This document shows positions 22,726-64,000 of a stretch of 64,000 nt of DNA, piece after piece. This DNA comes from Clostridia bacterium. GTDB lineage: Bacteria; Bacillota; Clostridia; Christensenellales; UBA1242. The translations under genes were made by a program, and so were the position numbers. Every line of letters starts with the position of its first letter. Position 1 is the first letter of the stretch. The notes under the pieces were generated by a model, which made no database searches, was not told the origin of the DNA, and saw nothing but the letters and a program-made list of their open reading frames with translations. The stretch is taken from contig JAFUSR010000004.1 of assembly GCA_017467585.1 (NCBI GenBank), positions 219,563-283,562 on the forward strand, in the 5' to 3' direction.

Positions 22726-24081
22726 ATGAAAAAAGTATTTTATTTTGTGTTATCTTTTTTGCTTGGGGTTGGGGCGTGCATTGTTGCCGGCACAAACTTT
22801 TCTTATGCAGCAGGTGACAACAAGGATTATTTGATTAGCCCAACATTTGCATCTGAAACAGGTTATCAATCAAAATACAACATTGAAGAAGACGAGGTGT
22901 TTGCAACATTTACACCAACATCAGCAAATGGCGTTCTTGCCGGGGCAAGTATCAAACCAAAAAGTTCCGCCACCGACAACTCGTTTGATAAAACATATTT
23001 AACAAAGGCTCCTGGTGTTGAAATTTCAGCAGAAAAATCTTTGTTTATAACATTGTTTTTTAACGGAAAAGAATTTCACAATTTAAAGATTGTTGCGAGC
23101 GATGGAACAAACAGCATTATTTGGAATATTTCTAAAAATGTTATTGCATCTGAAGTCAATTCTAACACCAGCACTTCTCGAATCAGATATGGGTGGGTGA
23201 CTGTTGAGTTGCCAGCCTCGCAAAATATAACTATTACATCACTTCAATTTGTTTATGCTAGTGATTCTTCAGATGATGGAATATCATATTCTCAAATGTA
23301 CTTTTATGCACCATATGTGGCAGACAAGCAAAATGATAATATTGCATTTAGTCAAAAGCAAAAGTATTATAACTATTCAGTTAAATTTGCAAATTATGAT
23401 TATGTTAACGACAAACTAGGAATATTTTCTGCAAGTGATTTATTTGAGTATTGTTATATTGGAGACGTTAACTATCTTGCAAGCCCAACAGACGACTATT
23501 ACTTTATTCTTTCTGTAACTAACAACAGCACAGCGACAACCGTTTCGCACACTCTTAAGATTGGAACTTTTGATTTTCAATACACATTTAATGAAATTGC
23601 CAACTATGAAATTAGTGTGTCGCTTTATGACTCATTGGGCACAGGGCTTTGGGTTGTTAGCCGGAGCTATAACATAAACGAATTTGTTGCTTTATATTTA
23701 AGTCAGGGTTTGCCAGACATGCAAAAGGGGCAGACGTTTTCTTTTGATATAAACATTTCTTCGCTCTTGATAGGAGCTCACGATTTGACTGCGGTTTCAA
23801 CAAACAGCAAGGTTGCAAGTGCTGAGGTTAAAGACGGAAAACTTTATGTCTCGGCAAATGGTCGAGGCAGTTGTGACATTACCATTAAAATTACTGGGAA
23901 AAAGGGAACCAGTGAAGAGCAAACCTATTCATCAACCTACAGAGTTTTTGTTTCTGAAAAAAATGAAGTGAATTGGTGGTTGATGGGTGGTGTTGCAATT
24001 TTCTTGATTGTTGCAGGTGTTGTGGTGTATACTATTATGGTAAGACGAAGAATGATAAGGGGAAAATATCCTAAATACTAA
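22726..24081 (+). CDS. Secreted, C-terminally membrane-anchored surface protein (function unknown)
   Basis: It has an N-terminal signal-like segment (FYFVLSFLLGVGACIVAG) and an Ig-like segment (LTAVSTNSKVASAEVKDGKLYVSANGRGSCDITIKITG). A C-terminal TM with a basic tail follows (WWLMGGVAIFLIVAGVVVYTIMVRRRMIRGK). Confidence 0.6.
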   Translation: MKKVFYFVLSFLLGVGACIVAGTNFSYAAGDNKDYLISPTFASETGYQSKYNIEEDEVFATFTPTSANGVLAGASIKPKSSATDNSFDKTYLTKAPGVEISAEKSLFITLFFNGKEFHNLKIVASDGTNSIIWNISKNVIASEVNSNTSTSRIRYGWVTVELPASQNITITSLQFVYASDSSDDGISYSQMYFYAPYVADKQNDNIAFSQKQKYYNYSVKFANYDYVNDKLGIFSASDLFEYCYIGDVNYLASPTDDYYFILSVTNNSTATTVSHTLKIGTFDFQYTFNEIANYEISVSLYDSLGTGLWVVSRSYNINEFVALYLSQGLPDMQKGQTFSFDINISSLLIGAHDLTAVSTNSKVASAEVKDGKLYVSANGRGSCDITIKITGKKGTSEEQTYSSTYRVFVSEKNEVNWWLMGGVAIFLIVAGVVVYTIMVRRRMIRGKYPKY

Positions 24082-25699: not shown

Positions 25700-25969
25700 G
25701 TGTTGTGCGCAAATTTCGACATACAACACCGATTCGGGGACAAAGTAGCCAACTACTCCAAAGCCACCCCATGGCACATAAGCGAGTTTGCTTAGTGCTG
25801 CTGCGGTCAAGCTCTGACACGGTTCACAAATGCCTATTGCATGGGACCTTGGTATCAACATCACTTGCAGTGTTCTGCAACCCATATCGTATGCCTAAAA
25901 GTGCTGTCAGCCCTGCGTGTAGCGGATTTCAGGTTAAGGGCACCGCTAGCTCCCCACCTAGCACAACAC
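25700..25969 (-). ncRNA. ffs: Signal recognition particle RNA, large Bacillus type with Alu domain (~270 nt)
   Basis: The minus-strand transcript reads GUGUUGUGCUAGGUGGGGAGCUAGCGGUGCCCUUAACCUGAAAUCCGCU...GUGUCAGAGCUUGACCGCAGCAGCACUAAGCAAAC...GCGCACAACAC. The segment GGGGAGCUAGCGGUGCCC..ACCUG.AAUCCGCU matches my recollection of the B. subtilis scRNA Alu domain, and GUCAG...GCAGCAGCA.UAAG matches the helix 8 / domain IV core. The 5' GUGUUGUGC pairs with the 3' GCACAACAC. The gene has its own TTGATA-17-TATAAT promoter. The region is GC-enriched relative to its flanks. Confidence 0.88.
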
Positions 25970-30954: not shown

Positions 30955-30998
30955 AGCCGTGCAAAACAAAAAACGCAATACTTTTGGAGGGTAAAAGT

Positions 30999-33026
30999 AT
31001 GACAAACAAAGAAAAAACAATTAAACAACTCAAAACAACATATCCTAAAATCGCTAGACTTGATGAACTTATTCATGGTCGTAGGACTGCTGTAGGCAAG
31101 GAAGAGGTTGCAAATATTGTTGATGAACTTATGTCTGGTTTAATAGAAGAGACTTCTGCTCTTCTTCAGTATTATGACCTTGTTACTAATGACACAACAA
31201 TGGAAGGCTCAAGCTGGAAAGATGAAACAGTTTTTGCACCTTTACAACTTTCTATTATTGAACTTAAAAAAGCTCTTCTTGAAGCCGGTTCAACAAATGC
31301 TTCTCTTGCTGAACAATTAGAAGCAGAAAAAGTTGCACGCAAGGCTCTTGAAAATGAAATTGGCTCAATCCAAGGAATAGACGCTGTTTACGCTGAGCAT
31401 GCAAGAGAAAATGCTGTTCAACAAGCAAGAAAATGGAAAGCTGCTTACACAAGAGAATTGTATGCAAAAGCTAATGTTATTACTCAAGCTCAATTGTGGA
31501 AATTGAGACACGACCTTGCTGTTAAAGAATATGAGCAACAAAGAATGGAAGTAATTCGTTTAACACTTTCAAATGAAAGACTCAGAGAGAAAAACGCAAC
31601 TCTCAGAGTTCGACTTGCTGAAACTGAAGCTGCTCTTCTTGAAGCATGGGAAAAGAATGAAGAAGATGACAAAACAATCTTGGAACTTAGAGCATCAATT
31701 GCCGCTATTGAAGAAGAGAATTCTCTTGCAAGACAACAAATTGAAAACACACAGGGTGTAATGGAACAAAGAGATTCTGCAAATAGAACTGCCGCTGGTC
31801 TTAGAACAAAATTAAAGAAAAACAGAGTTCTCCTTGGTGTTGTGGCAGGTGTTCTTGGTGCTGGACTTGTAACTTCTGTTGCATTTAACATTGCTCAAGG
31901 GGTTAGCCTTGCTGAGAAAGAAGATACCATCGACAAACAAGGGCAAAAAATTGATGCACTAGAAACAGATTTGAAAAATGCAACAGATGAATATAATAAA
32001 AAAATTGCCGAACTTAACACACAACACGAACAAGCAATTGCCACACTTAACGCACAACACGAACAAGCAATTGAAGAACTTAATGCTGAGTGGCAAACAA
32101 AAATTAACGAGATCAAAGATAATTACGAAGCCGAAATTGCAAGAATTAGAGCAGAGCACGACGCAAAAGTTGCAGAACTTAATGCTAGACATGCACAAGA
32201 AATTGCAGATCTTACCAATGCTCATCAAGCTGAGATTGACGAACTTAACCGTGTGTTTGAAGAAAGAACTGCTGAAATTCAAGCAGAGTTAGACAAAATT
32301 ACTGCCTATGCACAAGAAACAACAGACGAGTTCTACACATTGGCAGGACTTGATTGGAAAGATGTTGAAGTTGAAAAGAAAAATGATGTAAGCTATGTTA
32401 CAACATTTGCAGAAGATGCAGAAATGACAGCTGTTGGTGAAGCTCACTATGCACTTGCTATGAACTCAACAGAAGACATCAATCTTACATTTGCAGACTT
32501 TACTGTTGATGGAAACGTAGTAATTTGGAATGGTGCTTCAGAAATCATTAAAGATGTTATGAACAACCAAAACGAAAACCAAGATGACGAAACAAAAACT
32601 AATGGTGGTGCTGGCGGTGTTTCTGACAACAACGACCCTGCTGGTTCACAAATTGGTGTTGGTGGCGGAGCTCAAACCGATCCAGTTCCTGAAACTGAAG
32701 AGCCAGAAGTTGCCCCTGCTGAAGGTGAAGACACAAACAACCCAGCAAATGCTGAAGTTGAAACCTATAATGCTGAGGGCGCTGCAAAGATTTTACACGA
32801 CCTTCAAGAATTTGAAAGCAAGTTGAATGCTGGAGAATTATACTCAGCTGCTCACTCTCAAGAAGAAATAAGTGCAAAGATTGCTGAAATCAAAACACTC
32901 ATTAACAATTCAATGTTAATAGAAGATGTTGCCGAAGCAAACCAATTAGTAGAACAAGCTAGTGGCTTGTTTGCAGAGGTTCAATCTTGGATTACACATA
33001 CTATTGATTATGGCAGAGGAAGATAA
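30999..33026 (+). CDS. Bitopic coiled-coil membrane protein with 11-residue repeat array and acidic low-complexity region
   Basis: ATG 30999 follows GGAGGG. A single central TM is present (VLLGVVAGVLGAGLVTSVAFNIAQGV). Nine consecutive hendecad repeats follow (IAELNTQHEQA / IATLNAQHEQA ...), and then a D/E/N/G/P-rich segment. Confidence 0.6.
   Translation: MTNKEKTIKQLKTTYPKIARLDELIHGRRTAVGKEEVANIVDELMSGLIEETSALLQYYDLVTNDTTMEGSSWKDETVFAPLQLSIIELKKALLEAGSTNASLAEQLEAEKVARKALENEIGSIQGIDAVYAEHARENAVQQARKWKAAYTRELYAKANVITQAQLWKLRHDLAVKEYEQQRMEVIRLTLSNERLREKNATLRVRLAETEAALLEAWEKNEEDDKTILELRASIAAIEEENSLARQQIENTQGVMEQRDSANRTAAGLRTKLKKNRVLLGVVAGVLGAGLVTSVAFNIAQGVSLAEKEDTIDKQGQKIDALETDLKNATDEYNKKIAELNTQHEQAIATLNAQHEQAIEELNAEWQTKINEIKDNYEAEIARIRAEHDAKVAELNARHAQEIADLTNAHQAEIDELNRVFEERTAEIQAELDKITAYAQETTDEFYTLAGLDWKDVEVEKKNDVSYVTTFAEDAEMTAVGEAHYALAMNSTEDINLTFADFTVDGNVVIWNGASEIIKDVMNNQNENQDDETKTNGGAGGVSDNNDPAGSQIGVGGGAQTDPVPETEEPEVAPAEGEDTNNPANAEVETYNAEGAAKILHDLQEFESKLNAGELYSAAHSQEEISAKIAEIKTLINNSMLIEDVAEANQLVEQASGLFAEVQSWITHTIDYGRGR
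32004..32300 (+). repeat. Nine consecutive 33-nt (11-aa) coding repeats in the coiled-coil protein
   Basis: The protein repeats are IAELNTQHEQA, IATLNAQHEQA, IEELNAEWQTK, INEIKDNYEAE, IARIRAEHDAK, VAELNARHAQE, IADLTNAHQAE, IDELNRVFEER and TAEIQAELDKI. The first two units share 28 of 30 nt (32011-32040 versus 32044-32073). Confidence 0.8.
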
Positions 33027-40905: not shown

Positions 40906-42126
40906 ATGAAGCTTGGAATACGAAACAGTAGTCATTTTAAAAGGTGTGCTTTTGCTGCGCTTGGCGTGGCAACACTTTTGGGGTGTGGCACATTGTTTTT
41001 AAAATCTTCAGGAATGAGTGATGAAAGAAATAGGCAAGTTTCACAAATAGTAGAAAAACTTGGTGCTGATAACGACATAATGTTTGGTCAAGTTTTAAAA
41101 GATAATGGGGATGAACCAGTTTATGTTTCTTTCAGTGAAGACTACGATGATTCCACATACGCCGGTTATAAAGAATCTGCAATTTATGCTCTTGACTATG
41201 TGTTTGGGGCTGTTGGTGGAATTAATAACAATTATAAATATGAAATAGTCTCTCAAGAAGAGTTAGACAAACCATCATATAAGTCTAAGTCGGTAATACA
41301 ATTTCATATTGATGATTTGTCTCAAGAAGAGCCAGTAGGTGGAAATTGTTGCAGAATGGATCCTTGGTATATCATTAAAGGAGATTCATTTAGGTTGCAA
41401 AACTCTAAGTGGGGAGAAACAGAATTAAATTATGTTTATACTCACGAACTTTTGCATGCATTTGGATTTAAAGATATTTATGAGCATAGAATGAATAATG
41501 AAATGTATGCACCAACCATAATGACTCCTAAAGGGTATATGACCAACTTAACTGTGAATGATTATGCTCTTTTGATGGCATATTATTCTCCACAGTTTGA
41601 TACGCAAGAACAATTAGACGAATTTGTTGATCGTGCTCAAGACAAATTAGCGGAATATCAAGACTATTATTATCAGTCGATGGATGATTTGTTTTCAACC
41701 AATAGTTATACTAAATCTCAAATAAAAACGCTTGGAGATATTTCTTTTCCGGGGAATATTTCTTCAATTAAAAATTCTTCAGAGTATGCTACTAATATGG
41801 GAAAAGAGCAAATTAGAAATTATGATTATAGCATTGAAGATGAGAAATATGTTTTTACTATAACCGATGAAAATGGCAAAATTTATACACAAAGTCATGG
41901 CGATGTTGTTTATACCAAAAACTTTATTCATTTAAAAGACGTTCAAATGCCAGAAGGAATTTCACCCCAGGTTGAAGGATTTAAAGACTCCGCCAGAATT
42001 GATAATATTATGATTACAAAATTTGGTGATAGTGTTGCTGTAATTCATCCTTGGAGTATGGATTATAACACATGCAATAATCAAGTGACCTATGCAAACA
42101 GCACTGTTGAAAGAGGAATAAAATAA
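40906..42126 (+). CDS. Putative lipoprotein zinc metalloprotease (HExxHxxGxxD metzincin-like)
   Basis: A lipobox-like signal is present (ALGVATLLGCG). The zinc motif is THELLHAFGFKD, and a possible Met-turn follows (APTIMTP). Confidence 0.6.
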   Translation: MKLGIRNSSHFKRCAFAALGVATLLGCGTLFLKSSGMSDERNRQVSQIVEKLGADNDIMFGQVLKDNGDEPVYVSFSEDYDDSTYAGYKESAIYALDYVFGAVGGINNNYKYEIVSQEELDKPSYKSKSVIQFHIDDLSQEEPVGGNCCRMDPWYIIKGDSFRLQNSKWGETELNYVYTHELLHAFGFKDIYEHRMNNEMYAPTIMTPKGYMTNLTVNDYALLMAYYSPQFDTQEQLDEFVDRAQDKLAEYQDYYYQSMDDLFSTNSYTKSQIKTLGDISFPGNISSIKNSSEYATNMGKEQIRNYDYSIEDEKYVFTITDENGKIYTQSHGDVVYTKNFIHLKDVQMPEGISPQVEGFKDSARIDNIMITKFGDSVAVIHPWSMDYNTCNNQVTYANSTVERGIK

Positions 42127-51324: not shown

Positions 51325-51484
51325 AGTTAATAGAAAATTAGCAAGCCAAAGACAGTAAGTGAACACAATTTGTTCTTAATATCTTACCTAGGAGTGCAGC
51401 AATATGAAAACCTTCACCTTGCGCGCTTTTTGGCGGCAAGGTTTTTTATTAGCGCTTCACGCTTAATAAAAAGGGAGGAATAAA
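51325..51484 (+). promoter_or_regulatory. Ribosomal protein L10 leader with attenuator terminator
   Basis: It lies between the TTGACA(51291)-16-TATAAT(51313) promoter and rplJ. The AGCCAAAGACAGUAAGUG...CUUACCUAGGAGUGC element is reminiscent of the Firmicute L10 leader (a mimic of the L10-L12 binding site). An intrinsic terminator, ACCTTGC...GCAAGGT+T6, lies at 51416-51449. Confidence 0.75.
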
Positions 51485-54964: not shown

Positions 54965-57900
54965 TTATTGAATTCCGCCTTCAGACTTTGTTTTGTCTTC
55001 AGTGGCTATTTCTTTTGCTGGTCCCTTTTTGCGTTTGCGTTTAACAATGATTGCAACAAGTGCTACAACAAGTGAGCCAACCAGTAAGATAGAAGAGAGA
55101 ACATAGAAGAACAGTTGCCAACTGAAATTGCTTTGAGATGAAGCATCGCTTGAGCTATCATCAGAAGTTTCTTCTTTAGCGAGACTCTTTATTGCCACAG
55201 TTTTGTCTTCTGAAATGCCTTCAGCTGTTGTTGCAGTGTTATATTCATCTTCGGTTAATTCAACAATTTTCATGTTAGAAAGCATGGCCCAGCCAGTGTA
55301 GCCATTTTCTTCACGACCGAGGGCGAAGTTGAGGGCAAATGTTCCGATGCTTGTTTCACCAGTTCTAAGATAGAATGTATATGTCTTCCAACCTGTGCTT
55401 TCAGAAATGTTGTCGATTTCAACATCAAATCCGTTTGCAAAAATTGTAAGGCCTTTATCTTCTCCCATGTCGCTTGTTAGAACATCGATGGTTACTTTTA
55501 CACATTTTTTATTGCTGATTGTGTTGTCAAACACACTGTTAACAGCGGTGAAATCGGTTGTGTCGTTGTTGATAATAACTAGGGCAGTTGTTGCTGCTGT
55601 GTTAGGATTAAGAACAGCGCCAGTTGCTGCTGTTTCGTTGTAGGTGAAGCCTTTATTAAGGTCTACAACACCAACTTGACCTTGAGTGTAAGATGCGCTT
55701 TCTGAAATTGTTTCAAGAGCATATCCATAAGCCTCAAAAATTCCATTTTCGTCAGCTTTTGCAGAGTGGTTAGAGAAGTTGTTGTTTTTGAGGTCAACAA
55801 ATCTTGTTACTCTAACTTCACCAGAAACAACACTGTCAAATCCGTTGACACATGCGTTGTTGAATTCTTCGTCGTATTGATCGTCAATTGAAACTTTTAC
55901 ATTTCCATAAGTTTTTTCAGAAAGTTCAACATAGTCTACTTTTTGAACAAACATTGTGCCCTTGCTGTTTTCAGAGCCGAGAAGGAGGGGCATTCCAACG
56001 CTTTCGTTGCCTGTTCTAACAAAAACTGTAAATGTCTGCCATGTTCCTTCGGTTGCAGTTTCCGTGGTGCCATCTACTTTTAAGTTGATGGATGCAATTG
56101 TTTTTGCATCATCAGAAGTTCCGTTGGTAAGGCGCGCAACAAATTTTCCATCGAAATTTGTTCCAAACCAAACTTGGAATGTGAGTTTATAGAGTTTGTT
56201 GGCAGAGAAGTTTATTGAGCTAGAACGCATTAAGAACTTAGATTGTTCTTCATCGCCTGTGTCTGGAAGAGAAACGGCGTAAACGTTTTCGCGTGTGAGC
56301 TCAACATCTGTTCCGTTAACATCAATCACTGTTTTAGGAACAGTTTGGTTTCCGAATAATTTTTTAACAGTTGTTGCTCTGACATATTTGCCGGCAAAAT
56401 CTTTAAGATAGTTCACGCCATATTCTAAAGTAATAACTGTGTCATCTTCTTCAGTATATTTTTCAACACCACCATCAATGAAAATTCTTTCTTGATCTAA
56501 ATATTCAATGTTTCCGTCTTTATCGCGGGCAGGAACAACTTTTTCATAGTTGTTGTCATCGGTTGAAATTACGCCACGAACAACGCCAGTTGATGTGCTG
56601 TTAGAAATGATTGTCCAAGAGTCTGCAGTGTAAGGGTAGGTTGCTGTGTCGTCTTCTGCTGTTATAGAGAAAGAGTTGAAGTTTCCGTTTGTGATGTTGC
56701 TAGTAAGAATTCCATAGCTAGACAAATCAATGCCACTTGAAGAAACAAAAGAACTAGATGTGATTGATTCAACTTTGATGTTATCAAAATAAACAGTTGT
56801 GTTTTTGCTTGCAAGAAGTGTTAAATATACAAATTGAGATGCAACTGGATTGCCTTTAACATAAAGAACAATTTCTTTCCAGCCATTTGTGCTGTTGCTG
56901 TTGTATTCAAAGTCAGTTGCTGTGTTAGATGCGGTGATAAGTTGTCCATAAACTGAGGCAGACTTTGTCTTTATTGCAGAGAATAGTCTTGCTGTTGCAG
57001 TTGCTTCTGAATCTTCAGAATAAGCCCAAACAGAAACACGATAAACCGCTGCAGTTGGAACAAACAGGGCGCAACTTACAACGCCAAGGTCGTATGAACT
57101 TGTGTTTTTAAGCTCCAAAATTTCGTTGTTTTCGCCAAATGTGTTGTTTCGAACTGTTTCTTTTTTGTCTACTTTTTGAGTTTGTTCGTCAACGATTTGC
57201 TCTTCTTGAACAACATTGCCAAGTTCGTCTAAAACAACTCTCTCATATTCTGGGAAGGTTTCAGCTTCTTTAACAACTTTTGCTGTAAGTGAGCCGTTTG
57301 CATATAGATTGCGATATACAGCCTTTTCTGCGTCGGTGAGCCATGTTGTGCCAGCAGAATATCTTGGCATGTAATAGCTGAAAGGATAGGCATTATTAGA
57401 AAGGTATGTGTCGAAATTTAAAGAGTCTATTTCAGCTTCGCCAGCTTCATAAACAAGGTCGTCTGTTTCTTGGTCAGCAAGTGATTGAAGGGTTGGGTCG
57501 AATGTTGGGTTAACCCAGTTTGTTGCGCCAAAGCGGTCAACGTAAGTGTCAACAACAGAAAGTTCTGCGTCATTGTTATAGGTTGAATAGGTGTAGTGAT
57601 CGAGAGAAACAACTTCTTTTTCGTCGATTATTTCTGTTTTTAGAACGGCTTGCTTATTGTTTTGAATTGTTGTTATGTCGCTGATTGTTGATGCGATATA
57701 TTTTTTTGCTATTGCGTTTGGAGCAAAACCATTTATTGTTTGATTAATAAAATCAGTATAGTTGATTGTGTAGAGGTTGAGGTTGTCAAAGAATACGGCG
57801 CCACTTAAGCGATTTGCAAGATAATGATTTTCTTCTGAACCATAGTCAGACATCTTTTTATTTTTTCCGGTTACGCCATAAGTGTCTCCATAATAAAGGC

Positions 57901-58960
57901 GGATGTTAACACTTGTAGCATCCTGTGGTCTTGTTGCGATAAACAAATAATATTGAACCCATTTTCCTTCAGTTGAAATTCCACTTACAACTGCATCAAA
58001 GTTTGTTCCTGTGAGTTCAAGTGTTGCGGTTGCATCACCAGCTGTGTAAACCCAAACAGAAACAGCATAATAACTATTGTTTGTGAGAGATAGGGTTGAT
58101 GTTCCTGAAGATTTTGTTGATGTGTAGAGATAAAGTTTGTTTTCTTCCCATTCATAATCTCTTTTGAAATAGAGAGAATATTTTGTGATATCAAACTCTG
58201 CAAGTGATTCTTCTGCTGTAACAGGGTCACTTGATGCTTCGGTTTTGATTGAAGAATAGTCTTCTGTGTCGGTTCCGATGTATGTGTAGTCTGAGCCATC
58301 ATAGGTTGACTCGTGTTGGTTGATAACTGCATAGCGAAGGTTGGTAGATGTGTAGCCAAGAACCTCGTTAAGCTTTGCAACTTTTGTTTTAAGCTCAGCA
58401 ATTTTTTCAAGATGTTCTGCTTCTGTGTTAGAACCTTGAGTAATTAAAAGGTAAACGACATTGAGTTCTTCGTCGTCTTTAACAACTGTGTTATATGTGC
58501 TCTTATAGTTCTTTTTAGCAACTCTATAATCGTTTGTGACAATCATGCCACCAAAGTTGTCGGCAGTGTCGATATCTGAAAGGTTATCGATGTTGTCGCG
58601 TTCTTCTTTTTGTAGAGTAATTCCATTGAACTTAACAATAGGATAGTAAATTTTGCTATCCTTGTTATTTGTTACATAACTAATCAAGTCCTGACGAGCA
58701 GAAATGTCAACTTTTCCACTATTTATTGAAGAACTTGTGTCGCTGTTGCTTATGCTAAACTGGTTGGTTGAAAATTCATATTGGTCAACCTCTGCCTTGT
58801 AAGTATAAGTTGTCTCTTCAGATGAAGAGTCTGCTGCAAATGAAACATTGTTTGCTAGAGAATAAGCAAATGGAAAGTTAAATGAAAGTAACATTGCAAT
58901 TGCAAGCACCAAACTGAAAAAATTAAATTTTGATTTGTGATTAGTTTTTTTGATTGTCAT
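54965..58960 (-). CDS. Giant (1331 aa) secreted, C-terminally membrane-anchored surface protein with repeated beta-sandwich-like modules
   Basis: An N-terminal signal/TM is present (FNFFSLVLAIAMLLSFNFPFAYS). At least four modules share the pattern Y.VSVW.Y...ATA.L ... W..Y.L, for example YYAVSVWVYTAGDATATLEL and VYRVSVWAYSEDSEATATARL. A Ser/Asp-rich linker follows, and then a C-terminal TM with KRKRKKG. Confidence 0.65.
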   Translation of the reverse strand: MTIKKTNHKSKFNFFSLVLAIAMLLSFNFPFAYSLANNVSFAADSSSEETTYTYKAEVDQYEFSTNQFSISNSDTSSSINSGKVDISARQDLISYVTNNKDSKIYYPIVKFNGITLQKEERDNIDNLSDIDTADNFGGMIVTNDYRVAKKNYKSTYNTVVKDDEELNVVYLLITQGSNTEAEHLEKIAELKTKVAKLNEVLGYTSTNLRYAVINQHESTYDGSDYTYIGTDTEDYSSIKTEASSDPVTAEESLAEFDITKYSLYFKRDYEWEENKLYLYTSTKSSGTSTLSLTNNSYYAVSVWVYTAGDATATLELTGTNFDAVVSGISTEGKWVQYYLFIATRPQDATSVNIRLYYGDTYGVTGKNKKMSDYGSEENHYLANRLSGAVFFDNLNLYTINYTDFINQTINGFAPNAIAKKYIASTISDITTIQNNKQAVLKTEIIDEKEVVSLDHYTYSTYNNDAELSVVDTYVDRFGATNWVNPTFDPTLQSLADQETDDLVYEAGEAEIDSLNFDTYLSNNAYPFSYYMPRYSAGTTWLTDAEKAVYRNLYANGSLTAKVVKEAETFPEYERVVLDELGNVVQEEQIVDEQTQKVDKKETVRNNTFGENNEILELKNTSSYDLGVVSCALFVPTAAVYRVSVWAYSEDSEATATARLFSAIKTKSASVYGQLITASNTATDFEYNSNSTNGWKEIVLYVKGNPVASQFVYLTLLASKNTTVYFDNIKVESITSSSFVSSSGIDLSSYGILTSNITNGNFNSFSITAEDDTATYPYTADSWTIISNSTSTGVVRGVISTDDNNYEKVVPARDKDGNIEYLDQERIFIDGGVEKYTEEDDTVITLEYGVNYLKDFAGKYVRATTVKKLFGNQTVPKTVIDVNGTDVELTRENVYAVSLPDTGDEEQSKFLMRSSSINFSANKLYKLTFQVWFGTNFDGKFVARLTNGTSDDAKTIASINLKVDGTTETATEGTWQTFTVFVRTGNESVGMPLLLGSENSKGTMFVQKVDYVELSEKTYGNVKVSIDDQYDEEFNNACVNGFDSVVSGEVRVTRFVDLKNNNFSNHSAKADENGIFEAYGYALETISESASYTQGQVGVVDLNKGFTYNETAATGAVLNPNTAATTALVIINNDTTDFTAVNSVFDNTISNKKCVKVTIDVLTSDMGEDKGLTIFANGFDVEIDNISESTGWKTYTFYLRTGETSIGTFALNFALGREENGYTGWAMLSNMKIVELTEDEYNTATTAEGISEDKTVAIKSLAKEETSDDSSSDASSQSNFSWQLFFYVLSSILLVGSLVVALVAIIVKRKRKKGPAKEIATEDKTKSEGGIQ

Positions 58961-59120
58961 GATTTCACCTTGTTTTAAATTTTAGTTACAAAAGATATTC
59001 TAACATTGACTGACGAAAAAATCAAGTTTTTATTTGTTATTTATATAAATAATTAACATAACCTTTCAATAATAAAAGGGCCAACAAATAATATTGGGTA
59101 GTGTTGCAGATAATAGAATT

Positions 59121-59501
59121 ATGAAGAGGAAAAAAAAGAATTGGCTGCTTGCGGCGTGTGGATTAATTGTTGGTGCGGTGAATGGACTATTTGGGGCTGG
59201 TGGCGGAATGCTTGTGGTTCCAGTGTTTTCAATTGTTGAAAAATTGGAACAGAAAAAAAGCCACGCAACTGCGGTTATAACCATGTTGCCCATTTGCTTG
59301 TTTTCGTCCATTGGTTATTTAGCTAGTGGAGTGGTTGAATTTAAACCGCTAATTTTTGTGATGATGGGGAGCATTGTTGGTGGTCTTGTTGGGGCGTTTG
59401 CGTTGTGTAAAATAAAAAACGATTTTCTGGTGATAATTTTTTATATTTTGATGATTTTTGCAGGAGTTTTTTCGATTTTGAAGCAATATAACGTAATTTG
59501 A
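59121..59501 (+). CDS. TauE/SafE-family half-size permease (N-half-like, 4 TM)
   Basis: GAVNGLFGAGGGMLVVPVF is the TauE signature. The protein is about 126 aa. ATG 59121 is preferred over the track start at 59094. Confidence 0.7.
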   Translation: MKRKKKNWLLAACGLIVGAVNGLFGAGGGMLVVPVFSIVEKLEQKKSHATAVITMLPICLFSSIGYLASGVVEFKPLIFVMMGSIVGGLVGAFALCKIKNDFLVIIFYILMIFAGVFSILKQYNVI

Positions 59502-59600
59502 TTGAAATATTGCAGTTTTTGTATGGTTTTATGATTTAAGAACATAAAATTGCGGCAAAAAATCGCAAAAAACACAATATAACATTTAAATGGAGCTAAA

Positions 59601-60002
59601 ATGCAGGTTGTTTGGTTGATAATTGCTGGTTTTTGTGGTGGAATTATCGCAGGAATGGGTATGGGCGGGGGCACATTGTTAATTCCCGTTTTGACCTTAT
59701 TTTTTGGGTTTTCTCAAAAACTTTCTCAGGCGATAAACTTGATAGTTTTTTTGCCGGTTTCGATTGTTTCTATTTTTATTTATGCCAAGAAGAGGCTTAT
59801 AGATTTCACTGTGTGGTGGAAGGTGACTCTTCCTGCTTCGCTTGTTGCTGTGGTACTTTCTTTTTTTGCGGCTCAAGTTTCGTCTAGTTTTTTGCGTGTT
59901 GCATTCGCAGTATTTTTGATTTTGATTGCTGTTGTTCAAATTGTAATTTTTTGTTATAAAAAACTAAAAAATGGCAATTCAGGTAGAAATAATTCAAAAT
60001 AA
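59601..60002 (+). CDS. TauE/SafE-family half-size permease (second half-like, 4 TM)
   Basis: The signature GGIIAGMGMGGGTLLIPVL is present. The 133-aa protein has its own RBS (TGGAG) after a 99-nt spacer. Confidence 0.7.
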   Translation: MQVVWLIIAGFCGGIIAGMGMGGGTLLIPVLTLFFGFSQKLSQAINLIVFLPVSIVSIFIYAKKRLIDFTVWWKVTLPASLVAVVLSFFAAQVSSSFLRVAFAVFLILIAVVQIVIFCYKKLKNGNSGRNNSK

Positions 60003-60091
60003 ATTAATTTATTTTAAATAGTGTTCAATTTTGTTTTACTTTCATCTTTAATTTTTGTTAAAATAGTTATATCAAAAATGGAGAGTGAAAA

Positions 60092-61411
60092 GTGGCTATT
60101 AACTTACTAAGTGGTGTTAACTTGCGTATGACTAAAGATGACACCCACATTAACGACATTATTGAAATTCGTCCACCAGAATTGTATTCTGTTCCTGTTG
60201 TTTGCACAAATGGCTATCCTGTTACTGTGACTGTAAAGGTGGGTGACAAAGTTAAAGAGGGAACTTTGATTGCAAAACCATCGCAAAGCAAGGGTGTGTT
60301 TGTGTATAGTCCTACCAGCGGAACCGTTGTTTCGATTGTGGAGAAATTTACACCAACTGGCATGAAGTGTAAGCATGTTGTCATCAAAAATGACAATCTT
60401 TTGCAAGAGCACAATTTTCCTGAAATGACCGACAAATCTCCTAAAGAACTTTTAAAGCGTCTTGCTATTAGTGGAATTGTTGACGCCAACTTTGGTGGTT
60501 CTCCAACATACTTGCGATATACTTTAAATGCAATTGAAAAAAAGTTTAATTTGTATGTAACCATGAGCAATACAGACCCATATTTAACTGCGAACGAGTG
60601 TCTAACTCTCAACAGAACGGCAGAGGTTGTTGGTGGAGCAAAATACTTTGCGTCGCTTTTGGCAAGTGAGTTTATTGTGTTTGTGTTTACTGCTCGTGCA
60701 AGACAGGCTAAAAAACACTTGATTCAATTTTTAAAAAAACATGAGCCAAATCTTAAATATAAAATCAAAACCATTTCTAACAACTATCCTAGTGACAACA
60801 TTCATTTGCTTAACGAAAAGTTTAAAGAATCTCGAAACATGTTTGTTGAAACATATGGAAAAAAAGCATTTGTTGAAGATGCGATAACATGTTTCAGCTT
60901 TTTTAACAGCGTTGAATATGGTAAGCCAAACATGTATAGAGTTATTACCATTTCTGGAAACAACATTATCAGAAAGGGCAACTACATTGTTAAGAGTGGA
61001 ACAACTTTTCAACATGTTTTAGAAGTTGTTGGTGTTAAAACTCCAGACAAGCCATTTAAAATTTTAAATGGAGGAATCATGGGCGGTCTTGCTGAATATT
61101 CTACTGATATTTCTTGCAATCTAGAAACACTTAGTGTTACCTTTGTTGACAACACTGAATATTCCGAAGCAAAAGAATCACCTTGCATCAATTGTGGCAA
61201 GTGTGTTGCAGCATGTCCAATGAATTTGCTGCCTAACGTTCTTGATGACTATTGCCTTAGAAGAAAGACTTTTGATGCTGAAAGATATGGTGTTAAGAGT
61301 TGCATTGAGTGTGGTTGCTGCAGCTATGTGTGCCCAGCAAGAAGATATTTAGCTCAAAGAATAGGGCTAGTAAAAAGGCAGGTTTCTAGAAGAAAAGGAG
61401 GAAGTAAATAA
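60092..61411 (+). CDS. rnfC: RnfC-like subunit (two 4Fe-4S motifs intact, nucleotide/flavin motif divergent)
   Basis: A GTG start lies 6 nt after GGAGAG. A barrel-sandwich N-terminus is present (VTVKVGDKVKEGTLIAKP). GIVDANFGGSPTYLRY replaces the usual GIVG.GGAGFPT. CINCGKCVAACP and CIECGCCSYVCP are present. Confidence 0.8.
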   Translation: MAINLLSGVNLRMTKDDTHINDIIEIRPPELYSVPVVCTNGYPVTVTVKVGDKVKEGTLIAKPSQSKGVFVYSPTSGTVVSIVEKFTPTGMKCKHVVIKNDNLLQEHNFPEMTDKSPKELLKRLAISGIVDANFGGSPTYLRYTLNAIEKKFNLYVTMSNTDPYLTANECLTLNRTAEVVGGAKYFASLLASEFIVFVFTARARQAKKHLIQFLKKHEPNLKYKIKTISNNYPSDNIHLLNEKFKESRNMFVETYGKKAFVEDAITCFSFFNSVEYGKPNMYRVITISGNNIIRKGNYIVKSGTTFQHVLEVVGVKTPDKPFKILNGGIMGGLAEYSTDISCNLETLSVTFVDNTEYSEAKESPCINCGKCVAACPMNLLPNVLDDYCLRRKTFDAERYGVKSCIECGCCSYVCPARRYLAQRIGLVKRQVSRRKGGSK

Positions 61412-62319
61412 TGAAATTATTGGTTTCTCCAGCTCCTCATAAAATTTCTAGTCAAAGCGTCAACGATATGTATATAACCATTAGCATTGCTTTGTTTGCG
61501 TGCCTATCGGTTGGCTTTATTAATTATGGGGTTAATGTGTTATTGATTGTGGCAACTGCTGTTTTGTCGGCGCTTGCCTCAGAAATTTTGTTTAATTTGA
61601 TCAAAACAAGACAATTTGATTTTCCTAATCTTTCTTGCATTGTTACCGGACTTGTTGTTGCGTGTATTTCGCCAATAAACATGCCGTGGTATTTTGCGGC
61701 AGTTGCCTCTGTTATTGCGATTGGAAGCAAATATCTTTTTGGTGGAATAGGTAATAATTTGTTTAACCCTTCTGCGCTCGCCAGAAGTGTGCTCGGTTGC
61801 TTGGCTCTTGGCTTCAGTTTTGATTATTTTGGTGAAGGAAACACTGCTCTTAAACTCATTTTAACTGGAGAAAAGGGCAGCCTTGAACTTGCCAAATTGT
61901 TTACTGGAGAAGTTGCTGGTGCAATTGGAACAACATGCATCATTATTATTTTGATTGCAATGGTAGCTCTCATTGTGTTAAAGGTGATACGCTTAGAAAG
62001 TGTTGCATTTGCACTGCTTTCTTTCTGTGCTGTTATTTGGATAGCAATGGGGTTTGAAAACATTTTGCCAATGCTTTTAAGTGGTTCGTTTTTGTTTGTT
62101 GTTGTGTTCATGCTTGGCGACCCAACAACATCGTCGTATTCATTTTCAGGCAGATGCGTTTATGCCATTGTGTTTGGTGTGATTGCGGCGCTTACAATGA
62201 GTCACAATGTGTTTGGAGAATCTGCAGTGTTCTTTGCGCTTCTCATAGCCAACTTGTTTGCTCCAATGGCTGACAGAGTTTTTTCAATTTTCCACAGAGG
62301 GGTGAAGTTAAATGATTAG
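61411..62319 (+). CDS. rnfD: RnfD-like membrane subunit
   Basis: The 302-aa polytopic protein carries YLFGGIGNNLFNPSALAR and FMLGDPTTS, typical of RnfD/NqrB. Its ATG overlaps the rnfC stop. Confidence 0.8.
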   Translation: MKLLVSPAPHKISSQSVNDMYITISIALFACLSVGFINYGVNVLLIVATAVLSALASEILFNLIKTRQFDFPNLSCIVTGLVVACISPINMPWYFAAVASVIAIGSKYLFGGIGNNLFNPSALARSVLGCLALGFSFDYFGEGNTALKLILTGEKGSLELAKLFTGEVAGAIGTTCIIIILIAMVALIVLKVIRLESVAFALLSFCAVIWIAMGFENILPMLLSGSFLFVVVFMLGDPTTSSYSFSGRCVYAIVFGVIAALTMSHNVFGESAVFFALLIANLFAPMADRVFSIFHRGVKLND

Positions 62320-62986
62320 AGAACAATCACGTTTTACCATAAACCCATTATATGTTGTTGCGGTTGCCATGTGCACAATATGTCAATATGTTAACACTCT
62401 GCAACAAGGCCTTTTGTTTGGGCTTTTAACGGCTGTCATTTGTTTGCTTTGCACAAATCTTGTGAGCCTGGTTGAAAAGATTGCAGACAAAAACCTTCGT
62501 GCATTTTTAATCACCATGTTAACGGCGGTTATTATTGTAATTTTAGAATATGTTTTTGAGCTTTTAAATTGGGAAATATTAACCGAGAATTTAGATTCAA
62601 TTAAGTGGATTATCATTGCTGTTACCGCACTTAGCATTGTGCCAACATATTTTGAGACAAGACTGACCACAAGACACTATTTTATCAATATGTTCTTTTC
62701 GGTTATCTCATTCTTTGTTTTGATTGTTGTTTATTCAGTCATCATTGAAGTTCTTGGTTTTGGCTCAATTTTTGGCTATGCACTATTTGGAAACTTTGGT
62801 GGTTTTGTGTTTGCAGGGCAACTATACTTTAAGTTGTTTGTCATTGCGCTGCTCATAATTTTAACAAACTTTATTTATCAGGCAGTGGAAGACAGAAAAA
62901 TGAGATTTGACTTGCTTGTTGAAAAATACAAACTTAACATTAAGCAAGTTTTAAACGAAAGAGATGGAAAAGGGGGAACATTATAA
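62312..62986 (+). CDS. rnfE: RnfE-like membrane subunit (divergent)
   Basis: It has 6 predicted TM segments. INPLYVVAVAMCTICQYVNTLQQGLLFGLLTAVICLLCTNLVSLV aligns by eye with E. coli RsxE NNSALVQLLGLCPLLAVT...TLTNLTISTL. The gene overlaps rnfD by 8 nt. Confidence 0.65.
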   Translation: MIREQSRFTINPLYVVAVAMCTICQYVNTLQQGLLFGLLTAVICLLCTNLVSLVEKIADKNLRAFLITMLTAVIIVILEYVFELLNWEILTENLDSIKWIIIAVTALSIVPTYFETRLTTRHYFINMFFSVISFFVLIVVYSVIIEVLGFGSIFGYALFGNFGGFVFAGQLYFKLFVIALLIILTNFIYQAVEDRKMRFDLLVEKYKLNIKQVLNERDGKGGTL

Positions 62987-62987
62987 T

Positions 62988-63557
62988 ATGGCAAACGGAC
63001 TTTTGTGTTTAACCCTTTTAGTGACGTCAAATGTCATGTTAACAAATGGCTTTGGAGCGCTAGGTCTTCAACGCAACAAGAGCAATTTGTGGTTTGTGCT
63101 CTATAACACATTTACCATGATTTTGGTTATTTTGGCCTGCAGTTCTCTATATGCTCTTGCATATGTTTATCTGTTGATTCCTTATAACCTTGAAAGGCTT
63201 GGAATTTTAATTATAGTGATGTTTTCTGCGATCAGCAACTTTGGTGTGCTCGAAATAACAAAACTTGTGAACAAGGAAATGTATTACTATTATGATGCGA
63301 CCTATAGCTTTGTTGTTAACATGGGTCTGACCATCGGAATTATGTTTGTGATTGACTATTCTGGATCATTCGGTGAATCAATGGTTTATGCATGCTTGGT
63401 TTCTGCGGCCTATGCGGTTGCAACGCTTTTGTTTGCATTTGCATATTCAAGAATGCACAATCAAAAGATTTCAAGAATTTTCAGGCCTGTGCCTATAACA
63501 ATTTTAACAATGAGCATAATGGCCATGATAATTTATGCGATTTCTATTTCAATTTAA
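62988..63557 (+). CDS. rnfA: RnfA-like membrane subunit (divergent, conserved Cys absent)
   Basis: [24 protein letters not shown] aligns by eye with RsxA [43 protein letters not shown] aligns with LIPLNLIYLRTLAFILVIA. ATG 62988 follows AAGGGGGA. Confidence 0.65.
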   Translation: [189 protein letters not shown]

Positions 63558-63575
63558 ACAAATGAAGAGGTGTTT

Positions 63576-64000
63576 ATGTTAACGACAATTTTAATTGCAA
63601 TTGGTGTTGTTGTTGGTGTGGTAGGGTTTACCTTGCTCATCAGTTTTTTCATTAACAAAAGCAAGAGGCTTAACAGCAAAGAAACTTTCGTCCACAGCCT
63701 TTTGCCTGAACTAGATTGTGGAAAGTGTGGATGCCCAAACTGTGAGGCCTTTTCTAAGGAAGTTGCGGACGAAAGACAAGACATTTCGGCATGTCCATAT
63801 ATTTTGAAGGCTAACTTATCTAAGGCTAACAGGGTTTTGAAAAAGGGCTACGTTAATAATAGCAACATGATTGCTTGCATTAAGTGTAAAGGCGGAAAAG
63901 ATTGTAAAAACAAATTTGAATATCAAGGCCAACAATATTGCTGGTGTATGGACAGTTTGCATAGTGGTGCAAAGATGTGCGATAGGGCTTGTCTTGGTTG
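63576..64000 (+). CDS. rnfB: RnfB-like ferredoxin subunit, 3'-truncated by the window edge
   Basis: This gene is not in the ORF track because no stop falls inside the window. Translation gives MLTTILIAIGVVVGVVGFTLLISFF...LLPELDCGKCGCPNCEAFSKEVA...ACPY...IACIKCKGGKDCKNKFEYQGQQYCWCMDSLHSGAKMCDRACLG, which matches the RnfB N-terminal TM, the CGxCGxxxC Fe-S domain and the ferredoxin region. Confidence 0.8.
   Translation, partial: MLTTILIAIGVVVGVVGFTLLISFFINKSKRLNSKETFVHSLLPELDCGKCGCPNCEAFSKEVADERQDISACPYILKANLSKANRVLKKGYVNNSNMIACIKCKGGKDCKNKFEYQGQQYCWCMDSLHSGAKMCDRACLG

What the first reader, a model, noticed from the sequence alone, without database searches (positions are those of the whole stretch)
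60092..64000. Rnf-type cluster with order C-D-E-A-B, no rnfG, and apparent loss of most membrane cofactor ligands
Five tightly coupled genes read RnfC-like, RnfD-like, RnfE-like, RnfA-like and RnfB-like. The usual FMN-binding RnfG gene, which normally sits between D and E, has no room here. The D-like gene ends at 62319 and the E-like gene starts at 62312. No subunit is long enough to carry a fused G domain (439, 302, 224 and 189 aa).
By-eye alignment to E. coli RsxA and RsxE suggests several losses:
- The A-like protein has GFGALGLQ in place of FLGLCPFMG.
- The A-like protein has VVNMGLTIG in place of ITTNCAVLG.
- The E-like protein keeps one Cys (VAMCT) but has VTALSIV in place of VTNCIVV.
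- Only 1 of the 4 Cys thought to hold the intramembrane Fe-S centre of Rnf/Nqr therefore appears to be retained.
- RnfC has NFGGSPT where GGAGFPT is usual.
- RnfD lacks an obvious ..SGAT.. flavinylation motif; the nearest sequence is GEGNTAL.
In contrast, the soluble Fe-S motifs are intact. RnfC has 2x CxxCxxCxxxCP, and RnfB has CGxCGxxxC plus the ferredoxin region. This pattern does not look like random decay. It could be a remodelled Rnf-derived complex with a different electron path or function.
Basis: partly seen in the sequence, partly recalled or inferred. Interest (0 to 1): 0.6.

Follow-up and report, generated by a model that had tools for sequence, protein, structure and literature searches.

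The report
Remodelled Rnf complex without RnfG
A small clade of uncultured gut and rumen Clostridia keeps, under strong selection, a five-gene relative of the Rnf redox-driven ion pump that lacks the outer flavin subunit and three of the four ligands of the iron-sulfur centre inside the membrane, so it probably cannot work the textbook way and its real job is open.

Summary
Window 60092-64000 encodes tightly coupled rnfC-, D-, E-, A- and B-like genes with no rnfG. A longer contig shows rnfB (261 aa) is followed by ppx, not rnfG.

Lost or rebuilt, by profile alignment to solved Rnf/Nqr structures:
- Three of the four Cys ligands of the intramembrane [2Fe-2S] are replaced by other, conserved motifs.
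- The RnfC FMN loop and the RnfD flavinylation motif are rebuilt.

Retained:
- All Fe-S cysteines of RnfB and RnfC.
- RnfD keeps the FMN-acceptor Thr (T145) and both riboflavin ligands (N119, D237).
- RnfA/E keep the Na+-path residues N111 and R63.

This is not decay. dN/dS is 0.02-0.12 for all five genes. Eight complete operons from relatives share the C-D-E-A-B order. A relative at 27-48% identity has the same losses.

NCBI names the E and A subunits "hypothetical", and I found no paper describing the variant.

I read it as a functional, lineage-specific Rnf derivative that probably cannot run the canonical U-shaped electron loop. Its actual electron path and function are inferred, not shown. 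Whether rnfG, apbE or a canonical rnf operon lies elsewhere in the genome could not be tested.

The parts
60092..61411 (+). rnfC-like gene (439 aa). It has the RnfC_N barrel, a NuoF-like domain with a rebuilt glycine loop (D131-A-N-F-G-G-S-P-T139) and SNTDPYL in place of AECEPYL, and two intact CxxCxxCxxxCP motifs. Lineage-specific conserved Cys at C267 and C388.
   Evidence: TIGR01945 244.0 bits against a cut-off of 245.95; 7zc6_C 7e-62.
61411..62319 (+). rnfD-like gene (302 aa). It keeps the riboflavin ligands N119 and D237 and the FMN-acceptor position T145. The upstream motif is not (S/T)GA(S/T), and the outward-facing loops around T145 are shortened.
   Evidence: PF03116 4.7e-53; TIGR01946 116 against 207.
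62312..62986 (+). rnfE-like gene (224 aa). The first cluster Cys is kept (C21) and the second is replaced (V104, inside the conserved IVPTYFETRLTT). R63 matches the gating Arg67. It carries an extra charged C-terminal helix of about 35 aa.
62988..63557 (+). rnfA-like gene (189 aa; the mechanical ORF starts at 62964). Both cluster Cys are lost (L25, M112). N111 matches the Na+-ligand N112. New conserved motifs are [24 protein letters not shown]..N and RPVPITI.
   Evidence: no Pfam hit; TIGR01943 22 against 229.
63576..64000 (+). 5' part (141 codons) of the rnfB-like gene. The complete protein is 261 aa on L001 10613-11398. It has an N-terminal TM helix, a PF04060 Fe-S domain and a polyferredoxin, with all Cys motifs aligned to C. 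tetanomorphum RnfB.
59094..60002 (+). Two half-size TauE/SafE membrane protein genes (59094-59501 and 59601-60002) directly upstream on the same strand. They are syntenic with the rnf-like genes in all relatives, including the distant L007. A functional link is not shown.
60035..60064 (+). Promoter-like site (TTTACT-18-TAAAAT with TG) 28 nt upstream of rnfC. This is a consensus match only.
   Evidence: L001 7072-7101; window = L001 + 52963.

Best explanation
**What it is (supported by tests here)**
The locus encodes a functional, lineage-specific derivative of the Rnf ferredoxin:NAD+ oxidoreductase, made of RnfC, D, E, A and B only.

**What is kept and what is gone (shown by alignment)**
- The cytoplasmic iron-sulfur wiring is intact: the RnfB polyferredoxin with its PF04060 Fe-S domain, and the two [4Fe-4S] sites of RnfC.
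- RnfD keeps its riboflavin-binding residues and its FMN-acceptor Thr.
- The two carriers that take electrons across the membrane and back in every characterised Rnf/Nqr are missing from this operon. These are the Cys4 [2Fe-2S] between RnfA and RnfE, and the flavoprotein RnfG.
- The FMN/NAD pocket of RnfC is rebuilt.

**What follows**
Unless RnfG is encoded elsewhere and a non-Cys4 centre replaces the cluster, the complex cannot run the canonical U-shaped path Fd -> RnfB -> [2Fe-2S] -> FMN(G) -> FMN(D) -> riboflavin -> RnfC -> NAD+.

**Most likely mode of action (inferred, not shown)**
- It is still a ferredoxin-linked redox complex.
- Electron transfer is confined to the RnfB/RnfC/RnfD side.
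- The RnfA/E pair, which keeps Asn111 (= N112 of RnfA) and Arg63 (= R67 of RnfE), has become a non-redox ion-conducting or conformational module.
- The electron acceptor may no longer be NAD+.
For: **Homology and orthology of all five subunits**
-.

**No rnfG**
- None between D and E (8-nt overlap).
- None after B (ppx follows).
- No FMN_bind-like ORF and no strict flavinylation motif in the 64-kb window plus L001.

**Cluster ligands**
- Three of four lost, by profile alignment to four solved complexes.
- The A-like family has no invariant Cys. The E-like family has only C21.

**Retained residues**
- N119, D237 and T145 in D.
- R63 and N49 in E; N111 in A.
- All Fe-S Cys in B and C.

**Purifying selection and conservation**
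- dN/dS against a relative at 71-93% protein identity: C 0.055, D 0.115, E 0.092, A 0.073, B 0.022.
- 36 A-like and 36 E-like clusters at 48-100% identity, with invariant replacement motifs.
- Same order in 8 complete operons.
- The distant relative L007 (27-48% identity) shares the order, the same Cys pattern and the rebuilt RnfC loop.

**Canonical requirements, from papers**
- The membrane cofactors are "strictly conserved" in RNF/NQR (PMC12174285).
- The RnfB-RnfC Fe-S distance is 25 A to more than 30 A, so no direct transfer occurs in the canonical enzyme (PMC9588780, PMC11889175).
Against: - No cofactor content can be read from sequence. A single Cys plus Tyr, Asp, Glu or Arg could hold some other centre.
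- RnfB keeps the PF04060 Fe-S domain. Its only known job is to deliver electrons to the RnfA/E cluster, which is hard to explain if nothing in A/E accepts electrons.
- The RnfC loop still reads FGGSPT, so it could still bind a phosphate-bearing cofactor. Loss of FMN/NAD binding is therefore not proven.
- Only about 74 kb of the genome was seen. An rnfG, apbE or canonical rnf operon elsewhere cannot be excluded.
- A shortened RnfB-to-RnfC route would make the membrane subunits dispensable, yet they are strongly constrained.
Confidence: 0.55

Rival explanations
1. It is an ordinary Na+/H+-pumping Fd:NAD+ oxidoreductase. RnfG (and ApbE) are encoded elsewhere in the genome, and the A/E centre is held by non-Cys ligands or is dispensable.
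For: - RnfB, the RnfC Fe-S sites, RnfD T145/N119/D237, RnfE R63 and RnfA N111 are all kept.
- Only about 74 kb of the genome could be inspected.
Against: - Three of the four [2Fe-2S] Cys are replaced by L, M and V in all members.
- A. woodii strains with mutations of cofactor-stabilising residues could not regain growth on H2 + CO2 or show Fd:NAD+ activity (PMC11889175).
- The D flavinylation motif and the RnfC FMN loop are rebuilt.
- No subunit reaches its NCBIfam Rnf cut-off.
- No complete operon of the close family or of L007 contains rnfG.
Confidence: 0.12
2. The membrane core (the Amt/urea-transporter-like RnfD plus the alternating-access RnfA/E pair) now works as an ion or solute transporter. 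RnfB and RnfC act as redox sensors or regulators rather than as an electron path.
For: - Ion-path residues are retained, and new conserved polar motifs sit at the former cluster site.
- An rnfD-E-A-only cluster without C, G or B exists in another genome, with the same "only RnfE first Cys kept" pattern (L014).
- Many RnfA-like representatives lack the Cys ligands.
Against: - RnfB is the most constrained subunit (dN/dS 0.022) and keeps every cluster of a multi-cluster electron wire. That is more than a sensor should need.
- The RnfD flavin-contact residues are kept.
Confidence: 0.2
3. It is a decaying remnant of an rnf operon with no function.
For: - Very weak family-model scores for E and A.
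- NCBI annotates them as hypothetical proteins.
Against: - dN/dS is 0.02-0.12 in all five genes.
- ORFs are intact and translationally coupled in 8 complete operons.
- The replacement motifs are invariant.
- The features persist down to 27-48% identity.
Confidence: 0.03

Closest known systems
Clostridial-type Rnf complex (rnfCDGEAB; C. tetanomorphum 7ZC6, A. woodii 9ERI)
   Same: - Same five subunit families in the same order.
- Full-length alignment of C, D and B (E 7e-62, 2e-35 and 6e-44).
- RnfB architecture of TM helix, PF04060 Fe-S domain and polyferredoxin.
- RnfC with 2x[4Fe-4S].
- RnfD riboflavin ligands and FMN Thr position.
- RnfE R67 and RnfA N112 equivalents.

   Different: - No rnfG.
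- Three of the four [2Fe-2S] Cys are lost.
- The RnfD motif is not (S/T)GA(S/T), and the loops around it are shortened.
- The RnfC glycine loop and ECEP motif are rebuilt, with two extra conserved Cys.
- RnfE has a C-terminal helix of about 35 aa.
- All subunits score below the NCBIfam Rnf cut-offs.

Na+-NQR (V. cholerae)
   Same: - Homologous membrane core.
- It sets a precedent that a subunit of this machine can lose its cofactors yet be kept: NqrA is an RnfC homologue with no cofactor (PMC12174285).
   Different: - No NqrF.
- NQR keeps the [2Fe-2S] Cys4 site and NqrC (the RnfG equivalent).
- Here RnfC keeps its Fe-S clusters, while the membrane cluster and the G subunit are the parts that are lost.

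Partial "NQR/RNF-like" systems of Meheust et al. 2021 (PMC8238504)
   Same: They illustrate the idea that a half of the Rnf/Nqr loop can be used alone for one-way electron flow.
   Different: - Those systems are defined by an RnfD-NqrF(NAD-binding) fusion next to an FMN-binding or ApbE gene.
- This operon has neither the fusion nor any FMN_bind or ApbE gene.
- That survey only counted rnfB genes lying in flavinylation-associated clusters, so it would have missed this operon.
rnfD-E-A-only cluster (L014, GCA_054279635.1) and other Cys-poor RnfA-like proteins found here
   Same: The same pattern of RnfE first Cys kept with the other three lost. RnfA-like proteins are without Cys ligands.
   Different: - L014 lacks RnfC and RnfB altogether.
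- These are uncharacterised metagenomic sequences, not a described family.

Membership tests
Rnf complex (RnfABCDGE-type ferredoxin:NAD+ oxidoreductase) | RnfG subunit with covalently bound FMN, encoded in the operon. | tested here: not met
   - D and E overlap by 8 nt, and ppx follows B.
- No FMN_bind hit in any subunit.
- No FMN_bind-like ORF in the window plus L001.
- Absent from 8 complete related operons.
- The rest of the genome was not searchable.
Rnf complex (RnfABCDGE-type ferredoxin:NAD+ oxidoreductase) | Four Cys (two in RnfA, two in RnfE) ligating the intramembrane [2Fe-2S]. | tested here: not met
   Only RnfE C21 (= C25) is kept. V104, L25 and M112 stand at the other three positions.
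Rnf complex (RnfABCDGE-type ferredoxin:NAD+ oxidoreductase) | RnfD Thr in an (S/T)GA(S/T)-like motif for ApbE flavinylation. | tested here: inconclusive
   - T145 aligns with T156 of A. woodii and T236 of NqrB, and is conserved in 17/17 close members.
- The preceding residues are E/G-x-x rather than S/T-G-A.
- The distant relative L007 has Val at this position, with Ser at -1.

Rnf complex (RnfABCDGE-type ferredoxin:NAD+ oxidoreductase) | RnfD riboflavin-binding residues (A. woodii N123 and D249). | tested here: met
   N119 and D237 are invariant in the alignment, including canonical RnfD sequences.
Rnf complex (RnfABCDGE-type ferredoxin:NAD+ oxidoreductase) | RnfC NuoF-like FMN/NAD site (G-x-G-G-A-x-F-P-T loop; A-E-C-E-P-Y-L-T). 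| tested here: inconclusive
   - The loop is D-A-N-F-G-G-S-P-T and the second motif is S-N-T-D-P-Y-L.
- Pfam Complex1_51K scores 28.7 bits, below its cut-off of 31.2.
- Cofactor binding cannot be read from sequence.

Rnf complex (RnfABCDGE-type ferredoxin:NAD+ oxidoreductase) | RnfC with two [4Fe-4S] motifs, and RnfB with a PF04060 Fe-S domain plus polyferredoxin. | tested here: met
   All Cys align with 7zc6_C and 7zc6_B.
Rnf complex (RnfABCDGE-type ferredoxin:NAD+ oxidoreductase) | Each subunit reaches the curated NCBIfam/TIGRFAM score for its Rnf family. | tested here: not met
   - rnfC 244.0 against 245.95.
- rnfD 116.4 against 207.05.
- rnfE 15.2 against 213.4.
- rnfA 22.1 against 229.3.
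- rnfB 61.7 against 68.7.

Rnf complex (RnfABCDGE-type ferredoxin:NAD+ oxidoreductase) | Ferredoxin:NAD+ oxidoreductase activity coupled to Na+/H+ translocation. | not testable with these tools
   Requires biochemistry.
Na+-NQR | An NqrF (FAD/[2Fe-2S]/NADH) subunit, and an NqrA without cofactors. | tested here: not met
   There is no NqrF-like gene. The C subunit keeps two 4Fe-4S motifs and scores far higher as RnfC than as NqrA.
NQR/RNF-like partial systems (PMC8238504) | An RnfD/NqrB domain fused to an NqrF NAD-binding domain, in a cluster with FMN_bind or ApbE. | tested here: not met
   RnfD-like is 302 aa with only PF03116. There is no FMN_bind or ApbE nearby.

The most novel reading that the evidence does not exclude
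The U-shaped Rnf loop may have been straightened or re-targeted.

- The rebuilt FMN pocket of RnfC has gained two lineage-invariant cysteines: C267, next to the conserved Thr of the NVxT segment, and C388, in the ferredoxin-domain linker.
- This pocket could form a new redox site, either a Fe-S or metal site or a redox-active dithiol.
- In one version, the new site bridges the RnfB and RnfC cluster chains. Ferredoxin electrons would then flow RnfB -> RnfC -> riboflavin/FMN of RnfD towards the outer face of the membrane.
- In the other version, the site reduces a thiol or disulfide substrate in the cytoplasm.
- In both versions the Cys-free RnfA/E pair serves only as an ion path.

This would be a new catalytic type built from Rnf parts.
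Probability: 0.12. Interest if true: 0.85.

Novelty: new variant of a known kind. Interest (0 to 1): 0.62.

Why it matters
- Current structural and mechanistic work treats the membrane cofactors of Rnf/Nqr ([2Fe-2S], FMN-G, FMN-D, riboflavin) as strictly conserved and as the heart of redox-coupled Na+ pumping (PMC12174285, PMC11889175).
- Here a natural, strongly selected complex keeps the input and output Fe-S modules and the putative ion-path residues, but lacks the membrane cluster ligands and, in this operon, the shuttle subunit.
- Such a complex is a ready-made dissection of that mechanism. It can show what the RnfA/E and RnfD modules do without the electron loop.
- Genome annotation misses it, because E and A are called hypothetical. 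Metabolic reconstructions of these gut and rumen Clostridia will therefore either miss it or wrongly credit them with a canonical Rnf.
- The profile search also suggests a wider, undescribed pool of RnfA-like proteins without the cluster cysteines.

Tried and rejected
- **Searching for rnfG and apbE.** I looked for FMN_bind-like ORFs and the strict flavinylation motif in the window plus L001. Nothing was found, but this covers only about 74 kb.
- **Reading the upstream TauE/SafE pair as a functional partner.** The whole neighbourhood (matE, a large surface protein, the TauE pair, rnf, ppx, mreB, minD) is syntenic in relatives. The linkage may therefore only reflect shared ancestry.
- **Random decay or pseudogenes.** Rejected on dN/dS and on the conserved replacement motifs.
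- **Literature.** I searched for a described G-less Rnf. One Limnochordia paper writes "rnfCDEAB" only in passing, without comment. Reviews and evolutionary papers describe no such variant.
- **Contexts of other Cys-poor RnfA-like proteins.** These were mostly short contigs.
- **Wider scans.** The genome and metagenome collections gave only 4 loci each, so the family is rare.
- **Rfam.** No regulatory RNA was found near the operon.
- **Structure.** Both structure-prediction jobs went on the E-like and A-like subunits. RnfC could not be modelled, so whether C267 and C388 are close in space is untested.

Full report
**1. What is there**

The last 3.9 kb of the window carries five same-strand genes with overlapping or nearly abutting ends:
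- rnfC-like, 60092-61411 (439 aa).
- rnfD-like, 61411-62319 (302 aa).
- rnfE-like, 62312-62986 (224 aa).
- rnfA-like, 62988-63557 (189 aa, counted from the start used by all relatives).
- An rnfB-like gene that starts at 63576 and runs off the window.

An exact-protein look-up found the same DNA on a 49.7-kb assembly contig (L001). There rnfB is 261 aa and is followed by a Ppx/GppA phosphatase gene, then mreB on the other strand and a minD/parA-like gene. NCBI holds the same proteins from a MAG labelled "Clostridia bacterium" (MBQ8468573-77). It names them "4Fe-4S dicluster domain-containing protein", "RnfABCDGE type electron transport complex subunit D", two "hypothetical protein" entries (E and A) and "4Fe-4S binding protein".

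**2. Are they really Rnf subunits?**

- Pfam recognises RnfC_N (1.8e-16), NQR2_RnfD_RnfE (4.7e-53), Rnf-Nqr for E (1.4e-6) and the PF04060 Fe-S domain of RnfB (1.3e-10). It finds nothing for the A-like protein.
- Against NCBIfam, every subunit falls below the curated Rnf cut-off:

| Subunit | Score (bits) | Cut-off (bits) |
|---|---|---|
| C | 244.0 | 245.95 |
| D | 116.4 | 207.05 |
| E | 15.2 | 213.4 |
| A | 22.1 | 229.3 |
| B | 61.7 | 68.7 |

- Family profiles searched against PDB sequences give full-length matches to the corresponding chains of the solved Rnf complexes: C 7e-62, D 2e-35, E 2.7e-4, A 1.6e-7 and B 6e-44.
- The AF2 model of the E-like protein (pLDDT 84) has RnfE/NqrD chains as its 11 best PDB matches (TM 0.60-0.71).
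- The A-like model (pLDDT 80) has RnfA/NqrE chains as its 7 best matches (probability 0.99-1.00, TM 0.46-0.50).
- Orthology of all five is therefore established.

**3. No RnfG**

- D and E overlap by 8 nt, and no subunit has an FMN_bind hit.
- Subunit lengths match canonical ones, except for a C-terminal helix on E.
- The gene after B is ppx.
- No ORF of at least 60 aa in the window or L001 carries a strict flavinylation motif. No ORF of at least 50 aa resembles an RnfG-like FMN_bind protein taken from another locus.
- This covers only about 74 kb. The rest of the genome could not be searched.

**4. Cofactor sites, mapped to the A. woodii structure**

The reference residues come from PMC11889175:
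- The [2Fe-2S] is held by C25 and C113 of RnfA and C25 and C108 of RnfE.
- FMN is bound to T156 of RnfD.
- Riboflavin is held by N123 and D249 of RnfD.
- Na+ binding and gating involve N112 of RnfA and R67 of RnfE.

The HMMER alignments give the following mapping:

| A. woodii residue | Role | Window residue | Status |
|---|---|---|---|
| RnfE C25 | [2Fe-2S] ligand | C21 | Kept; invariant in 34/34 |
| RnfE C108 | [2Fe-2S] ligand | V104 | Lost |
| RnfA C25 | [2Fe-2S] ligand | L25 | Lost |
| RnfA C113 | [2Fe-2S] ligand | M112 | Lost |
| RnfD T156 | FMN attachment | T145 | Kept in 17/17 close members |
| RnfD N123 | Riboflavin | N119 | Kept |
| RnfD D249 | Riboflavin | D237 | Kept |
| RnfE R67 | Gating | R63 | Kept |
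| RnfA N112 | Na+ ligand | N111 | Kept |

- The A-like family of 26 aligned sequences has no invariant Cys at all.
- Only the [2Fe-2S] site is unambiguously lost.
- The residues before T145 are not S/T-G-A, and the loops flanking it are shorter than in canonical RnfD. ApbE-type flavinylation is therefore doubtful but not excluded.
- In RnfC the glycine loop GMGGATFPT reads DANFGGSPT, and AECEPYLT reads SNTDPYLT. Both [4Fe-4S] motifs are intact.
- Two cysteines absent from canonical RnfC (C267, C388) are conserved in 7/7 family sequences, including the distant relative. A third (C93) is conserved in 6/7.
- RnfB aligns over its full length with C. tetanomorphum RnfB, with the aligned Cys motifs preserved.

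**5. Not decay**

- Against a relative whose subunits are 71-93% identical (L015), Nei-Gojobori dN/dS is C 0.055, D 0.115, E 0.092, A 0.073 and B 0.022. dS is 1.1-2.0, so it is close to saturation, but the ratios are far below 1.
- The segments that replace the cluster-binding half-helices are among the most conserved parts of each protein:
  - A-like: [8 protein letters not shown].LQRNK and [11 protein letters not shown]..N.
  - E-like: the NP.Y..A..C segment around C21, and IVPTYFETRLTT.

**6. Distribution**

- The word-indexed search finds 36 A-like and 36 E-like clusters at 48-100% identity, all from metagenomes or MAGs.
- It finds 19 D-like clusters, followed by a sharp drop to 32% identity where canonical RnfD begins.
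- Only 4 of 185,579 species-representative genomes and 4 JGI metagenome contigs carry the family.
- Eight complete operons share the C-D-E-A-B order: window/L001, L002-L005, L007, L015 and L019. Eight partial ones are consistent with it: L006, L008-L010, L016, L018, L020 and L021 (L016 and L018 are the same JGI contig).
- An exhaustive profile search of 1.84 billion representatives collapses the family to one 50% cluster. Behind it sits a series of more distant Cys-less RnfA-like proteins.
- One of these lies in L007. It has identical synteny (the TauE pair, rnfCDEAB, ppx) at only 27-48% identity. It has the same "only the first RnfE Cys" pattern and a similarly rebuilt RnfC loop. The remodelling is therefore old within this lineage.
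- Further afield:
  - An rnfD-E-A-only cluster without C, G or B shows the same Cys pattern (L014).
  - Of 112 full-length representatives hit by the profile, 74 lack both RnfA cysteines. The query has no Cys at those positions, so this count is biased towards such proteins.

**7. What it most likely does**

In every characterised Rnf/Nqr the electron path runs:
1. From the input subunit to the A/E [2Fe-2S].
2. Out to the FMN of RnfG/NqrC.
3. Back through FMN and riboflavin of RnfD/NqrB.
4. To RnfC or to quinone.

The closest RnfB and RnfC clusters are 25 A to more than 30 A apart, which prevents a short circuit (PMC9588780, PMC11889175, PMC12174285). Two of those carriers are missing here, so the canonical loop cannot operate as encoded.

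Three observations shape my reading:
- RnfB is the most constrained subunit.
- RnfC keeps its clusters, and RnfD keeps its flavin contacts.
- A/E keep the ion-path residues.

I therefore favour a still redox-active, ferredoxin-linked complex. Its electron route would be confined to the B/C/D side, and its A/E pair would be a non-redox ion or conformational module. The acceptor may have changed, given the rebuilt RnfC pocket. All of this is inference.

The rivals are:
- A canonical pump with rnfG encoded elsewhere. This is unlikely because of the lost Cys ligands.
- A transporter regulated by Fe-S subunits. The rnfDEA-only clusters lend this some support.
- A decaying remnant. The dN/dS values reject this.

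**8. Known or new?**

- I found no paper describing a G-less, cluster-poor Rnf.
- The partial "NQR/RNF-like" systems of PMC8238504 are a different thing: an RnfD-NqrF fusion with FMN-binding proteins. That survey only counted rnfB genes next to flavinylation genes, so it would have missed this operon.
- I class the locus as a new variant of a known kind. It is built wholly from Rnf subunits but fails several defining features of the family.

Noticed in passing
window 60092-61411 (RnfC-like residues C267, C388, C93): Cysteines absent from canonical RnfC are conserved across the family. C267 and C388 are present in 7/7 sequences, including the 36%-identical L007. C93 is present in 6/7. C267 sits next to the conserved Thr of the NVxT-like segment near the FMN pocket. 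C388 lies between the two 4Fe-4S motifs. This may be a new redox or metal site.
   Followed up: partly
window 62867-62986 (RnfE-like residues about 186-224): A conserved, charged C-terminal helix of about 35 aa extends the last TM helix (AF2 helix 171-219). Canonical RnfE (196-201 aa) lacks it. From the RnfE topology it is probably cytoplasmic.
   Followed up: partly
window 59094-59501 and 59601-60002: Two half-size TauE/SafE genes lie in tandem. The first matches the C-terminal half of the Pfam model and the second matches the N-terminal half. They sit directly upstream of rnfC and are syntenic in all relatives, including L007.
   Followed up: partly
window 54965-58960 (- strand): A 1331-aa protein with no Pfam domain on record (precomputed hits). 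It has a hydrophobic N-terminus and a C-terminal TM segment followed by KRKRKK. It evolves fast: 38% identity in L005 and 29% in L007. It is probably a surface protein.
   Followed up: no
L014 5497-7992 (GCA_054279635.1, JAZPSJ010000035.1): An rnfD-rnfE-rnfA cluster followed by a DUF2752 gene, with no rnfC, rnfG or rnfB. RnfE keeps only the first cluster Cys and RnfA keeps none. RnfD has DITALATPL.
   Followed up: partly
Proteins P0073-P0203; L013 288-1431: Of 112 full-length 50%-cluster representatives hit by the Cys-less RnfA profile, 74 lack both canonical cluster Cys, often as C to S. A further 21 lack the first and 6 lack the second. In L013 a Cys-less RnfA is followed by an FMN_bind gene. 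The count is biased by the query.
   Followed up: partly
window 25703-25966 (-) and 51328-51456 (+): A bacterial large SRP RNA (143.8 bits) and a ribosomal protein L10 leader (58.5 bits).
   Followed up: no
window 22726-24081, 40906-42126 and 30984-33026: ORFs of 451 aa and 406 aa have no Pfam hit. A 680-aa ORF has only a sub-threshold apolipoprotein-like helical repeat match.
   Followed up: no
L001 10613-11398 (RnfB residues about 137-147): The first ferredoxin motif of RnfB reads C-x3-C-x2-C-x2-C-x3-C (MCDRACLGCGDCVRVC). C. tetanomorphum and A. woodii have C-x3-C-x5-C-x3-C, so this family has one extra Cys.
   Followed up: no
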